Source of the DNA: Enoplolaimus lenunculus
Taxonomy: Eukaryota
Length of the DNA: 64,000 nucleotides
Assembly: GCA_030248215.1 (NCBI GenBank)
Contig: JASANG010000443.1
Coordinates: forward strand, 1 to 64,000
Direction: 5' to 3'
Position 1 is the stretch's first letter. Every line of letters starts with the position of its first letter. A program made the position numbers and the translations under genes. The notes under the pieces are model-generated. The model was not told where the DNA came from. It did no database searches and saw only the letters and a program-made list of their open reading frames with translations. Shown piece after piece: positions 39,845-45,038 of the stretch.

Positions 39845-39887
39845 ATGATCAAACCTTTGGCGGCGTTTGCTTTGAGTTCAATTATAG
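39845..39887 (+). CDS. Exon 1 (signal peptide) of the secreted triple iGluR-ligand-binding-domain protein
   Basis: ATG ATC AAA CCT TTG GCG GCG TTT GCT TTG AGT TCA ATT ATA G|gtttgt (phase 1). Splicing to tttcag|TG at 40720 gives MIKPLAAFALSSIIVSFTSA-NTSS: basic n-region, hydrophobic core, small-x-Ala cleavage site. Confidence 0.75.
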
Positions 39888-40719
39888 GTTTGTTTTCCCA
39901 CGTATATAAAACAGGTTCCGAAAATAATAAAATCGGGCTTAGGCTGTCACAAATTCCGGATAAATCTTAGATCTACACTTGTTTGTAATTAGCCTCACGC
40001 TTTAGGCATAAGCTACGATTAAGCTAAAATTATTATTGTTTACGTTTCGAAACCTGTTCAATACGCTGGGACGTTTCGTTTTGTTTTTAAATTTTAACCG
40101 GTAAACAGCGAATCGTTCCACAAGAACGCTGCATAAAATCTATTGCAATATTCAGACTGGTGGCCAAATGCTACAGAGAGGCAAAAAATTTTCAGGAGGG
40201 GCATGCAAGTATTTCACATAACTTACCAAGTGCAGTTGAAAGTTTTTTGGGGGGCACAAGTTTTATCATGAGGGCTGAGTCCCCGCCAGGCCGTTCAAAA
40301 TATGATCACATACACTGTAAATTCTAACGAGTTGATTAATCAGCTCAGAGGCAGAATTAGTTATTTCTGGTTATTTTTAAGTTAATAATAGTAAATATTA
40401 ACTCACTTTGAGTTGATTTAATTTTGGCTTAGTTGATCAATTACTTAACTAAAAAAAAGTTCAAACAATTCAGGAATCTGAGTTCTGAAAATCTAAGGCA
40501 GTAGCTCAGACTCGGAGTGCATAACTCGCTAATTGCTTGCAGTTCGTGCAGCTTTTTCAAACGCCGGACGTCGCCGAACGTCAACAAATTTGTAGCTTAC
40601 AACTCGGTCTTCAGTACCGTCCGACGCTTTATGCCCATTCGTCCAGAATGCCAAACGACTCCGGCCAGTATTAATCGTATCGAAAGATGTAGCGTAACCC
40701 ATTAGTGTTGCGGTTTCAG

Positions 40720-42688
40720 TGAGTTTCACATCAGCCAACACATCGTCGAGAGCGTCTTCATATCGCGACTGGAGTAAATTCGTTCGCGACCCAGAAGGAG
40801 TCATCCGTGTCGTCGCCCTCGAACACGATCCACCGTTCTCAGAATCGTTGCCGTATTCGGGCACAGCGCGTGGCTTCTTAATCGATTTGATCGACGAACT
40901 CGCGCAGTCGCTTCGATTTCACTACGCGTTGTCGTTCGAAACGAATCGCGGGTTTTACGCGCATGAATCCGGTGTCTTTGGGGTTGTTACACGACGCTCC
41001 GCTGACATTGGCCTTGTGGCGTTTCATCGTGATTCGCGTCGATCACAATACGTCGCATTCAGTCGATCACCAATCTATGACGCGGTTAGCGTTGCAGTAT
41101 TGGGTCAACTGAAAACGACGAACGCGCTTGACGCGTTGGTCAATTCACAGACTCCGGTAGGAACGCGACGCGCTTCAGCAGTGCGTCGATTCTTCCGCGA
41201 GTCGCCGAATCGATTCTACAACGACGTAGCGCGGCGATGGATCGAAAACGCGTCGACGCTGTTGTTCGATTCGTACAACGATGACGTCATCGCTCAAGTT
41301 CGTCGCGGTCGATTGATCTTGGTCGACGAATCGCCGTATTTGCGATGGATTTGGAGTCGCAACTGTCAACTCGCGTACACTGAAGAAAATATCGCTCTCG
41401 ACGGATATCGACTGATTTTTCCGAAATTCAACTCGAACAGCAGAAGGCGCAGTAGCAACAATGGACGCAACAGTGATGAAACAACAGCAGCGTTGATTTC
41501 TCATTTTGACAAAGCACTGGAACAAATGGCACGTGCTGGAGTAATCGACAATTTAGCCGCAAAATGGTGGAACGCTCGTCCGCGTCCAAGCGTCGACTCG
41601 ATCATCGACGGAAGCGATACAGGTGGAAGCGTAGACACTCAACGATCGAGTGGCCGCCGTCGACGGCCGACATCAAACGGCGCCAGCCATAGCGTCGGTC
41701 CCGATGGCGGCGAACTCGAACCGCAATGTGTTGCGCCGTCTCAAATCGGCCACAGTGGTGCCGCTCATTCGCCACATTTGTCAGTGCTGAACGCGATCGA
41801 CGTTCAACGCCTTTCAACTGCCGTTCGACCGTTGAGAGTCGCCGTTGTTCCCGACGATATGCCGTTCGTTGAAGATAACGGAAAAGGTGGATTTTTAATC
41901 GATTTTTTGAACGCACTTTCGTTGAGAATTTCATTTCGATACACAATTCAAACGTCGACTGCAGCTGCAGCGGCGGCTGTCGGAGTCACAGCATCGGGCA
42001 GGCATCATACGACGTCAGGAAACCCTCAACAAACTCAACTTAATCCTCACAACCTTGAAAATCTGTACGAATATTTACAAACGGTTTTTGCAAAACGTGC
42101 CGGTGAACCTGAAATTGACCTGATTTTAGCCCCAATTTTGAAACCGTTACAAGTTGAATCGACGCCTTTTCAATCGCCGACCACGCAAGCTCAAAATCAA
42201 ACCCGATCCCAGTTCGAAACTGGCCCTCATTTTGGCAAGGGAACAACGTTTCGAACCAGAGAGTCTACTTCAGTGACGCCAAAGCTACTGTTAACCAATA
42301 AAAATTACCAATTTAGCTATCCTTATATGACAGTTGCAATTGCACTTGTAATGACACGAAGATTAAGTCAAAAATACACATTTGACGCTAGCTTGCAACC
42401 GCGATTACGTGCACAATTTCAACAAAATGACGTCATTCAAGCTAATGATTCAAATGTCACGTCATCGCAGACCAAAGATGCCAGGTATTTAAACGTTGAA
42501 ATCAATACAAAACGGCTCATATTTGTCGCCATTAAAGGATCAATGCTACTCGAAACGATGCGTTATAGTAGAAATCAAGAAATTGTCCAAGCTTACAGTA
42601 CAATTCAAAGACAAGGATTAATGACTGTCAGTTCAAAATCAGTCGCTTTGAAGTATGTCGCAACACGAGCGGATACAGCACGGACTAG

Positions 42689-42728
<40 letters not shown>

Positions 42729-42741
42729 AATAATCATAGTA

Positions 42742-42788
<47 letters not shown>

Positions 42789-45038
42789 GAATATATCTAC
42801 ATTGAGGAAGCGCCAGTCGCAGGCTGGTTGACTGCAAATAATTGCGATTTAATTTCCATTTACACCGAACTTAACTTGGGTGGATACGCGTTAATATTTG
42901 CTCAAAATAGTCCGTTCAAAGTTGAATTCAACCGAGCTATTAAGGCATTAAGGCAAGATGGAACCATCGTGTCATTGGCGTTGCCTTATTGGACGCCGAA
43001 ATGTCCGTCGTACTCGATCACTGCAGACTCGGAGCACGGTAACACAGGTCGAAGTGAAAACAGTCTTGCGAATAGAAACAACAATAATGACAATAATAAT
43101 AATAATTATAATAATAATAGTAAAAGTAGAATAAATAGTAGTAATTTATACAATAATGGAAACAAAAATATAACTACTAGTAACACAAACAATCATAATA
43201 ATAATAATAACCGCGAAAGTAAGCCAACTACTGCTTACGAGACCACAGAAGGCCGTCTTCTTACAAACAGTACGAAACCTCAAGTAACGCATCATGGCAG
43301 CAGACCTGGAGCACAAAACGGAAACACCTCATCGAGAAACAACAACAATAATAACAACCACAAAAACAACAACCAAAACAACAACAATAAAAGCGACACA
43401 CAAAATAACAACATTCCACTAATCAAAATCGATAATATCTCACCGAACGAAAGAACCCAATCACAATGGAGACCACGGTTAAATTTAACTCCGCCCATTT
43501 TACTGTATTCAATGGATTTGACACCGACGACAGTTTCAACAGCGCAAAGTGCAGCAAAATTTGAGTTTAATGAGCAAATTAATAGCGACAAAATTGACCA
43601 ATCACGCGACGACAAAATTGACCAATCACGCGACGAGAAAAGTGGCCAATCACGCGACGAGAAAATTTCACAAACGTTAGAAGAAATTTTAGAACAAAAT
43701 ATGCCATGGTTAGTAATGAATGATTCTACACGAAACAATCAAACAAACACTACGAAGTCACCATTAGTGGAAGACAACGTTTCCCCTGTCACAATGGTGG
43801 AATTTGAAAATACTGCGACCATTTATGCGAAAACTTCTCAGTCAATTATTGACGCTGCGCTCGTTCCGAGGAGGGACATTTTTAGTTCAACAATCAAGCC
43901 TGAACAGTACACGAACTTTAGCCAAACGAACATTGAAAAGCCACTAAGAATCATCGCCATGAACTACAGTAATCTTTCTCCAAAGTTAAAAATATTGGAA
44001 CATAAAACTGTGAACCGAACCAAGAGTGCTCCAATCGTCGAAAATCGCTTCAAATCTATCGAAACTCGAAACGTTTGCACTAAACAATTCAATTCATACG
44101 GCAAAACGCAGTCTATCGCAACGATTACAGCAATTTTCCCCTACGAATATGTGCCGTATTTAGAATTTGAACAAAATCAACATTCAACTGGCTTTTTCAC
44201 AAATCTCGCCCATGACTTAGTAAATAAGATTGGACTGAATTATTCACAGCAGTTTGTTCAAACGGCTGATTGGTTGTCGACGAGTGACGACGACTACAAT
44301 AACCCATCCGTCATTGGCCAGCAAACCAACAGTAACCGTACGTTGATTTGGCGTCGAATTATTTCAATGCTAGCAAACAACCAATACGATTTATCGATTG
44401 TTCCACTGAATTTAATATCTGCCAACGAAAAACGGTCTCTGAGCGTTGGAAGGCCAGTTATTCGAACAACACTTGTATTTGCATTGCCTGAAACGTTTAG
44501 CCTGAGCCCTCTTGATATGATCACGCTGCTAAGTCCAACATTTTCTCAAAATCAAACTTCAAAATACGTATCATTTGTGACAATCGCAAACAGTAGTATT
44601 GTGACAAATGAAAATGTTCAAAAATTACTTCGTACAGCCCCAGTTTCGCTTGAAACTGCAACAACGATTAGCGAAGCAATTTTAAAAATTTTCAACTCTC
44701 ATCGAAAACATTTTGAGTCGAACTTGAACAATTTCAACTTTAACTCGGCGACAGGACAGTTACCGTACCAATCGCGAACAACGTTTGTTCAAAAAATCCC
44801 AATTTTAGCACTCGCATCCGATGAGTTAATTCGTTACTCAACTCAAATCGCTCAATTTGAGTTAAACTTAATTGAAACTTCCATTGAAATTGACCGTTTT
44901 GCCGTTGTGACTCCACAGTGTCACCGTGGACTGCATCTGTTGTTCGAAACCATTTTGGCGACAATGAAACACTCTGGCGATTTAGTGAAACTTTGTCGAC
45001 AGTCAGACTTGCGAGAATTATGCCGATCAGCAATTTGA
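40720..45038 (+). CDS. Exon 2 of a ~1453-aa secreted protein with three tandem iGluR/IR-type ligand-binding (PBP type 2, S1+S2 fused) domains and Asn/Ser/Thr-rich linkers; no transmembrane helices
   Basis: 4.3-kb open frame; in-frame stop at 40695 and tttcag acceptor at 40714-40719. The S1 motif occurs three times (IRVVALEHDPPF..GFLIDLIDELA; LRVAVVPDDMPF..GFLIDFLNALS; YEYVPY..GFFTNLAHDLV). S2 motifs: ES..RNCQL...DGYRLIFPK...FDKALEQMARAGVIDNLAAKWW and EEA..NNCDL...GGYALIFAQNSPFKVEFNRAIKALRQDG..YWTPKC. Confidence 0.85.
42690..42786 (+). repeat. (AAC)n/(AAT)n coding microsatellite giving a ~32-residue poly-Asn insert
   Basis: Directly visible; in frame within ligand-binding domain 2. Confidence 0.95.

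What the first reader, a model, noticed from the sequence alone, without database searches (positions are those of the whole stretch)
39845..45038. Secreted, channel-less protein made of three tandem iGluR/IR-type ligand-binding domains
Seen: a 43-nt ATG exon splices in phase to a 4.3-kb exon, giving a signal peptide (MIKPLAAFALSSIIVSFTSA) followed by three clamshell-type domains (~40800-41730, ~41825-43005, ~44120-45035) and a stop, with no hydrophobic transmembrane segment. Known: in ionotropic glutamate receptors and IRs the LBD is split into S1 and S2 by M1-P-M3 and followed by M4. The S2 motifs here (NC-L....GY.LIF..S.....N.A...L...G......WW/YW..C) are iGluR-like. Inference: a soluble multivalent amino-acid or amine binding protein derived from iGluRs, conceptually like AChBP for Cys-loop receptors. 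It could buffer neurotransmitter, carry chemosensory ligands, or act as a secreted effector if the animal is a parasite. I do not know of a described family with this architecture.
Basis: partly seen in the sequence, partly recalled or inferred. Interest (0 to 1): 0.92.

Follow-up and report, generated by a model that had tools for sequence, protein, structure and literature searches.

The report
Pore-less triple glutamate-receptor clamshell protein
An animal gene (probably a nematode's) strings together three copies of the ligand-gripping "clamshell" of glutamate-receptor channels with no ion pore, so it is likely a secreted binding protein whose first clamshell is predicted to hold glycine-like amino acids, and single-clamshell relatives occur in other invertebrates with no description found in the papers searched.

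Summary
Largely confirmed. An intact 1,446-codon frame (40698-45038) holds iGluR ligand-binding domains whose S1 and S2 halves are joined directly, like the engineered S1S2 crystal constructs. No pore, M4 or ATD is coded anywhere in the 64-kb window (pore search: positive control 15 of 16). Domain 1 is complete (Foldseek E 4e-18; Z 25 to GluK2). It keeps Arg485 and Glu705 but has Ser-Ala-Val at 653-655, the published glycine/D-serine signature. Domain 2 is a full clamshell with inserts and no in-register Arg485. Domain 3 is degenerate, with only its S1 half detected. So 'multivalent' is doubtful: probably one working pocket. The signal peptide rests on an unverified splice (two candidate first exons; no RNA listed). 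New context: 16 of the 31 database hits are natural single-domain, pore-less S1S2 proteins, most with signal-like N-termini; named ones come from annelids and a mite. Ten literature searches found no description of them. No three-domain relative was found, and trees cannot place the protein. It is not an iGluR or IR (no PF00060). By analogy it works like AChBP. Verdict: new variant of a known kind; interest 0.7.

The parts
39845..39887 (+). Candidate first coding exon (ATG, 43 nt, phase 1): first part of a predicted signal peptide
   Evidence: GT donor follows; phase matches the acceptor; no RNA evidence
39755..39803 (+). Alternative candidate exon (AG before, GTAAG after, phase 1), hydrophobic, no ATG of its own
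   Evidence: would need a further upstream exon; untested
39888..40719 (+). Predicted intron (GT...TTTCAG)
40720..45038 (+). Large coding exon ending in TGA; no transmembrane segment, no hydrophobic C-terminal tail
40797..41729 (+). Domain 1: complete S1S2 clamshell. Arg485 equivalent at 41040, Ser-Ala-Val (653-655) at 41175, Asp704-Glu705 at 41325-41330, Cys718 equivalent at 41364, likely partner Cys at 41727
41655..41666 (+). Four-arginine run (possible furin-type cleavage site) in a ~50-residue loop between the Trp-Trp and the last Cys of domain 1
   Evidence: cleavage is inferred
41829..43004 (+). Domain 2: full clamshell with hydrophilic inserts (incl. poly-Asn 42690-42787); Glu705 and both Cys kept; ~45-residue insert where Arg485 should be
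   Evidence: profile-profile 98.4%, E 5e-15
43005..44108 (+). About 365-residue Asn/Ser/Thr-rich spacer with 16 N-glycosylation sequons; no clamshell signal
44109..45035 (+). Domain 3: degenerate clamshell; S1 half detectable, S2 half not; Arg485, Glu705 and Cys718 equivalents not recognisable

Best explanation
This gene encodes three tandem iGluR-type clamshells with no pore and is likely a secreted, glycosylated binding protein whose first clamshell is predicted to close on a small neutral amino acid (glycine, D-serine or alanine rather than glutamate) and so would buffer or carry it outside the cell. Shown: intact frame, S1 joined directly to S2, no pore/M4/ATD in the window, iGluR fold and pocket residues of domain 1. 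Inferred: splicing to a signal-peptide exon and secretion; origin from an iGluR by deletion of M1-P-M3 and loss of M4, then tandem duplication; ligand identity; domains 2 and 3 having lost canonical amino-acid binding and serving as spacers, partners or binders of other ligands.
For: Domain 1 aligns end to end with engineered S1S2 constructs straight across the linker that replaces the pore (best E 3.6e-8; all 60 rows shown of 215 are iGluRs). The S1-to-S2 spacer is 34 residues, against 136-172 in 16 of 16 channel rows and 34-41 in 17 of 17 pore-less relatives. A pore profile finds nothing better than E 0.31 among 3,361 six-frame pieces of the window, nor do M4 and ATD profiles; held-out 40-residue pore pieces were detected in 15 of 16 controls. 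The alignment-guided model (pLDDT 83.5) matches iGluR ligand-binding domains first (Foldseek E 3.9e-18; Z 25.0, rmsd 2.6 over 242 residues, rows 1-14 all iGluRs, best bacterial row Z 20.6). Domain 1 has Arg485, Glu705, Ser653, Val655 and Asp704. PMC6307864 (section 7) gives Arg485 plus acidic 705 as the amino-acid grip and Ser653 plus non-polar 655 as the glycine signature. PMC13648236 (section 14) calls SAV a typical glycine-selective motif, lists DE among glycine-receptor motifs, and shows GST-to-SAV in GluA2 lowers glutamate and raises D-serine potency. The architecture exists elsewhere: 16 of 31 hits lack PF00060, 14 of 17 such proteins have a hydrophobic N-terminus, and one sits on an intronless 1,154-base contig with a stop and AATAAA after it.
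Against: No transcript evidence either way, and two candidate first exons; SignalP was not available. No canonical AATAAA until about 47000, only variants near 45096 and 45113. Domain 1 has Ala478 and His480 where relatives mostly have Asp/Pro and Thr, which could block the pocket, and PMC13648236 warns that selectivity is hard to predict from these residues. The model leans on an alignment of iGluR-like rows; without it folding failed (pLDDT 33). All hits are distant (24-37% identity, none below E 1e-10), and no tandem relative was found. Trees do not place domain 1 and do not reject grouping with bacterial binding proteins (that tree scored 8.8 log units higher, p-AU 0.66, long branches).
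Confidence: 0.5

Rival explanations
1. A secreted structural or surface-coat protein in which the clamshells are reused as scaffolds and bind no small ligand.
For: Two of three domains lack the Arg485 grip in register; long low-complexity inserts and a 16-sequon spacer; very long branches; domain 1 is compositionally odd and has His480.
Against: Domain 1 still keeps Arg485, Glu705 and a coherent glycine-type lower-lobe signature at only about 20-25% overall identity to relatives.
Confidence: 0.2
2. A secreted modulator or decoy that docks on the ligand-binding layer of membrane iGluRs and changes their gating, as the secreted protein NRAP-1 does by a different fold.
For: iGluR ligand-binding domains are solved as dimers (titles); NRAP-1 shows that a soluble protein can gate nematode NMDA receptors (PMC11531325, start of abstract only).
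Against: No partner is known; the animal's own iGluRs were not available.
Confidence: 0.1
3. The gene model is wrong at one end: the protein is cytoplasmic, or an isoform leaves the big exon at the GTAAG near 43219 and gains a membrane anchor.
For: The first exon is ambiguous; one consensus donor lies inside the big exon.
Against: Both candidate first exons are hydrophobic; the Cys pairs and 26 sequons fit the secretory route; no pore or M4 exon in the window, and a convergent PACT-domain gene occupies the region from about 49950.
Confidence: 0.1
4. The domains come from a bacterial periplasmic binding protein (family 3) by horizontal transfer, which would explain the uninterrupted clamshell without any loss of a pore.
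For: Bacterial proteins have the same 36-residue spacer; PF00497 and PF10613 score alike on domain 1; the tree test does not reject it; domain 1 is GC-richer than its surroundings.
Against: All 31 hits among 1.84 billion proteins carry PF10613 at E 2e-21 or better, and 15 carry the channel domain (one pore-less hit, P0015, is named an ABC substrate-binding protein by its source). Domains 1 and 2 have the Cys718 equivalent found in 33 of 33 iGluR-type rows and absent in both bacterial rows. Only one weak NCBIfam bacterial hit (19 bits, cut-off 256).
Confidence: 0.06
5. A decaying, unexpressed relic of an iGluR or IR gene.
For: Degenerate domains 2 and 3; microsatellite expansions in the frame.
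Against: 1,446 codons without a stop or frameshift in 36-52% GC DNA, with all repeat expansions in frame.
Confidence: 0.04

Closest known systems
Ligand-binding domains of AMPA/kainate/delta iGluRs, as engineered S1S2 constructs (PDB 5dtb Drosophila CG3822, 3lsw GluA3, 1yae and 2i0c GluK2)
   Same: Same fold and collinear sequence, with S1 joined to S2 at the place of the engineered linker; Arg485, Glu705, Cys718.
   Different: Natural, genomic, three in tandem; Ser-Ala-Val instead of Gly-Ser-Thr; domains 2 and 3 degenerate.
Uncharacterised single-domain pore-less iGluR-LBD proteins (Capitella teleta ELU16500.1, Owenia fusiformis CAH1779393.1, Oppia nitens XP_054160127.1, and 14 entries without a species name)
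   Same: PF10613 + PF00497 without PF00060; 34-41-residue S1-S2 spacer; mostly hydrophobic N-terminus; no internal TM.
   Different: One domain, 237-346 aa; 16 of 17 have Gly653 (glutamate-type); 5 of 17 have a hydrophobic C-terminal tail, which the window protein lacks. Common origin neither shown nor rejected (p-AU 0.16-0.26).
Acetylcholine-binding protein (AChBP) of molluscs (recalled; no paper read)
   Same: Concept: a secreted ligand-binding domain of a ligand-gated channel family without the pore.
   Different: Cys-loop fold, non-covalent pentamer, shown to act at synapses; unrelated in sequence and fold.
SmGBP of Schistosoma mansoni (PMC3206071, abstract)
   Same: A truncated glutamate-receptor relative lacking the channel/7TM part that still binds glutamate.
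   Different: Derived from metabotropic receptors (Venus flytrap module), single module, membrane-associated.
Bacterial family-3 solute-binding proteins, including tandem ones (GlnPQ SBD1-SBD2, PDB 6h30; BvgS VFT, 4q0c)
   Same: Uninterrupted clamshell; tandem arrangement exists (rows 23 and 28, Z 19.9 and 19.6).
   Different: Lack the iGluR cysteine; attached to transporters or kinases (recalled); lower structural scores.

Membership tests
iGluR / IR channels | PF10613 ligand-binding S1 domain (PMC2924276, passage) | tested here: met
   E 2e-15, 3 stretches
iGluR / IR channels | PF00060 channel domain: M1-P-M3 between S1 and S2 | tested here: not met
   No PF00060; spacer 34 residues; pore profile best E 0.31 in the window, control 15 of 16
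iGluR / IR channels | SYTANLAAF gate motif (PMC6307864, passage) | tested here: not met
   Six-frame motif scan gave only two short off-gene matches
iGluR / IR channels | M4 helix after S2 | tested here: not met
iGluR (non-IR) | ATD (PF01094) | tested here: not met
   No Pfam hit; ATD profile from 5 sequences best E 3.1 in the window (no positive control run)
iGluR-type ligand-binding domain | Two-lobed clamshell fold | tested here: met
   Domain 1 model (alignment-guided); domain 2 by profile; domain 3 inconclusive
iGluR-type ligand-binding domain | Arg485 plus acidic 705 amino-acid grip | tested here: met
   Met in domain 1. Domain 2 has Glu705 but no in-register Arg (the Arg lies inside an insert). 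Domain 3 has neither recognisably
iGluR-type ligand-binding domain | Binds an amino acid | not testable with these tools
   Needs a binding assay
Single-domain pore-less iGluR-LBD proteins (undescribed set) | Direct S1-S2 join without TM | tested here: met
Single-domain pore-less iGluR-LBD proteins (undescribed set) | Common descent with the set | tested here: inconclusive
   AU p 0.16 for one clade with domain 1; long branch
Secreted protein | Signal peptide on the real transcript | tested here: inconclusive
   In-phase hydrophobic exon candidates; no RNA listed; no SignalP
Bacterial family-3 solute-binding proteins | Reaches a curated bacterial family cut-off | tested here: not met
   Best NCBIfam 19.3 bits vs cut-off 256; PF00497 is met but is shared with all 31 iGluR-type hits

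The most novel reading that the evidence does not exclude
Invertebrates have an overlooked class of secreted 'glutamate-receptor binding proteins', the iGluR counterpart of AChBP, made by deleting the pore from an iGluR. This gene is its first concatenated, glycine/D-serine-tuned member, released or processed at its four-arginine site to set extracellular co-agonist levels around glutamatergic synapses or at the animal's surface.
Probability: 0.3. Interest if true: 0.88.

Novelty: new variant of a known kind. Interest (0 to 1): 0.7.

Why it matters
AChBP showed that animals can tune synapses with a soluble copy of a receptor's binding domain, and it became the structural stand-in for a whole channel family (recalled). 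No natural counterpart for ionotropic glutamate receptors turned up in the searches here. Surveys filter such proteins out: one large phylogeny dropped sequences lacking the gate motif (PMC6307864, methods passage), and iGluR/IR genes are defined by PF10613 plus PF00060 (PMC2924276). Natural S1S2 proteins are small, soluble and easy to express, so their ligands can be tested directly, and they are candidate scaffolds for glycine or D-serine sensors.

Tried and rejected
No whole genome is held, so paralogues and the animal's own iGluRs could not be checked. No RNA holder was listed, which is no evidence either way. Two word-indexed protein searches found nothing: 0 of 2,127 candidates of 795-2,531 aa, and 0 of 1,401 of 152-485 aa. 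A profile search gave 6 hits among 7,519 candidates: 2 complete single-domain proteins, 1 fragment and 3 bacterial binding proteins. The exact window frames are not in the collection. Single-sequence folding failed. Domain 3 was not folded, because MAFFT misaligned its second half. A viral-contig scan gave one weak match (27% over 81 residues) in a protein with no evident clamshell features, taken as chance. Trees: the careful search did not finish; quick trees leave domain 1 unplaced and AU tests reject none of four groupings; domain 3 was left out of all trees and domain 2 out. The top ESM Atlas cluster (261 aa, 'Glutamate receptor kainate-like protein') has the name and length of PDB construct 4zdm, so it is probably engineered constructs and was not counted as natural relatives. 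Ten literature searches listed no paper on natural pore-less iGluR domains; the library lacks most subscription journals, and no supplements were read.
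Full report
Observation. The + strand frame 40698-45038 is open for 1,446 codons, against 60-130 stops in the other five frames. A second candidate exon (39755-39803, AG before, GTAAG after, also phase 1, also hydrophobic, no ATG) exists, and no RNA run was listed, so the N-terminus is a prediction. 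The frame has no transmembrane segment (best 19-residue hydropathy 1.25) and no hydrophobic tail (0.66). Pfam finds PF10613 and PF00497 but not PF00060.

No channel parts nearby. Profiles of the M1-P-M3 region (16 rows), M4 (14 rows) and ATD (5 rows) were built from relatives and run over all 3,361 six-frame pieces of the window. Best E-values were 0.31, 0.57 and 3.1. In a leave-one-out control, 40-residue pore pieces were detected for 15 of 16 rows. The flanks are taken: a two-pore potassium channel gene ends near 31698 (PF07885) and a convergent PACT-domain gene has exons from about 49950 (PF10495). The animal is probably a nematode: TTAGGC/GCCTAA occurs 114 times against 20 for TTAGGG/CCCTAA, in 21 tandem runs. 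That TTAGGC is the nematode telomere repeat is recalled, and no whole genome is held.

The three domains. Domain 1 aligns collinearly with engineered S1S2 constructs across the linker that replaces the pore (E 3.6e-8; the 60 rows shown of 215 are all iGluRs). Its S1-to-S2 spacer is 34 residues, against 136-172 in 16 of 16 channel rows. A model guided by a 17-row alignment reached pLDDT 83.5 and matches GluK2 and GluA2 domains first (Z 25.0, rmsd 2.6, 242 residues; best bacterial row Z 20.6). The alignment biases that model, and single-sequence folding failed. Domain 2 matches the same profile over its full length (98.4%), with several hydrophilic inserts. Domain 3 is faint: the S1 half is detected (38%, E 3e-4; 13.1 bits vs at most 7.5 in 1000 shuffles; ESM feature score 0.91), the S2 half is not. 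The spacer of about 365 residues between domains 2 and 3 is 19% Asn, carries 16 of the frame's 26 sequons and has no clamshell signal.

Pocket. By the rules in PMC6307864 (section 7 read), Arg485 and an acidic 705 grip the amino-acid backbone, and Ser653 with a non-polar 655 marks glycine binders. Domain 1 has Arg485, Glu705 and Ser-Ala-Val at 653-655, with Asp704. PMC13648236 (abstract, section 14 and passages read) names SAV a typical glycine-selective motif, lists DE among motifs of glycine-selective receptors, and reports that GluA2 with SAV gives its largest currents to D-serine with drastically reduced glutamate potency. It also warns that such predictions are unreliable. Ala478 and His480 in domain 1 are unusual. 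Domain 2 keeps Glu705 and both cysteines, but a ~45-residue insert replaces the Arg485 segment; domain 3 shows neither grip residue. The protein is therefore more likely monovalent than multivalent for amino acids. Domain 1's second cysteine lies about 50 residues beyond its Trp-Trp, enclosing a four-arginine run that could be a furin-type site (inference).

Relatives. An exhaustive HMMER search with domain 1 over 1.84 billion proteins gave 31 hits, all distant. Fifteen are channels; 16 carry PF10613 and PF00497 without PF00060 and are 237-346 residues long. With one more, 17 of 17 have a 34-41-residue spacer and no internal TM, 14 of 17 a hydrophobic N-terminus, 5 of 17 a hydrophobic C-terminal tail, 15 of 17 the Arg/acid grip and 16 of 17 Gly653. 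Named ones are uncharacterised entries from Capitella, Owenia and the mite Oppia. Many unnamed ones lie on contigs of about 1 kb; the one read has an intronless frame, a stop and an AATAAA, as a complete transcript would. P0015 is N-terminally incomplete and labelled an ABC substrate-binding protein by its source. No hit has tandem pore-less domains. Earlier notes of this scan describe single-domain cases in annelid genomes; I saw them after finding the set, and they are not independent support.

Origin. Trees on 240-268 columns leave domain 1 on a very long branch. Domains 1 and 2 join (SH-aLRT 96, flagged as a possible long-branch artefact). AU tests reject neither one clade of the 17 pore-less proteins (p 0.26), nor that clade plus domain 1 (0.16), nor domain 1 with two bacterial proteins (0.66, a tree 8.8 log units better than the free search), nor domain 1 with a Caenorhabditis iGluR (0.39). 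iGluR ancestry rests instead on the hit list, the iGluR cysteine (33 of 33 iGluR-type rows, 0 of 2 bacterial) and the structural ranking. A single 4.3-kb exon would fit a retro-copied origin, as proposed for divergent IRs (PMC2924276, passages), but this was not tested.

Mechanism and verdict. Most likely a secreted, glycosylated protein with one working clamshell for a small neutral amino acid and two degenerate ones on a flexible spacer, acting as an extracellular buffer or carrier (0.5). Rivals: ligand-free scaffold (0.2), receptor-docking modulator (0.1), wrong gene ends (0.1), bacterial origin (0.06), relic (0.04). It is not a member of the iGluR or IR channel families, since pore, gate motif and M4 were tested and not met. 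It works like AChBP (recalled) or the truncated mGluR SmGBP (PMC3206071, abstract) only by analogy. Ten searches of the open literature and passage searches in PMC12226733, PMC6307864 and PMC13648236 found no description of natural pore-less iGluR domains; subscription papers and supplements were not seen. New variant of a known kind; interest 0.7.

Noticed in passing
window 25656-31698 (+): Multi-exon two-pore potassium channel gene (PF07885 in three exons), TWK-like by recalled resemblance.
   Followed up: partly
window 49950-56676 (-): Large coiled-coil gene with a PACT domain exon (52152-52472, PF10495 E 1.5e-8): pericentrin/AKAP9-like, convergent with the finding.
   Followed up: partly
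window 39480-39742, with further copies at 35497-35740, 36088-36282, 36366-36620, 36952-37232: A ~260-base element bounded by CACTGTAAA...TTTACAGTG inverted ends (MITE-like) recurs many times; one copy ends just upstream of the candidate first exons (read).
   Followed up: no
window 40800-41822: Domain 1 and its loop are GC-rich (52-60%, GC3 0.53) against GC3 0.33-0.41 in the rest of the gene and in neighbouring exons; unexplained.
   Followed up: partly
window, 21 runs between 9563 and 34568: Interstitial TTAGGC/GCCTAA tandem runs, up to 7 copies at 23210.
   Followed up: partly
proteins P0019 and P0020: Two single-domain pore-less proteins (one from Capitella) have Pro at 705 and an aromatic residue at 480, so a sub-group may not bind amino acids.
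   Followed up: no
ESM Atlas rows: Giant-virus (Nucleocytoviricota) clusters of 337 and 361 aa with PF00497 and, in about 30% of members, PF10613: viral clamshell proteins of unknown role.
   Followed up: no
protein P0027 (Lineus longissimus XP_064648822.1): Two ATD-less iGluR units fused in one 989-aa model; may be a gene-model fusion.
   Followed up: no
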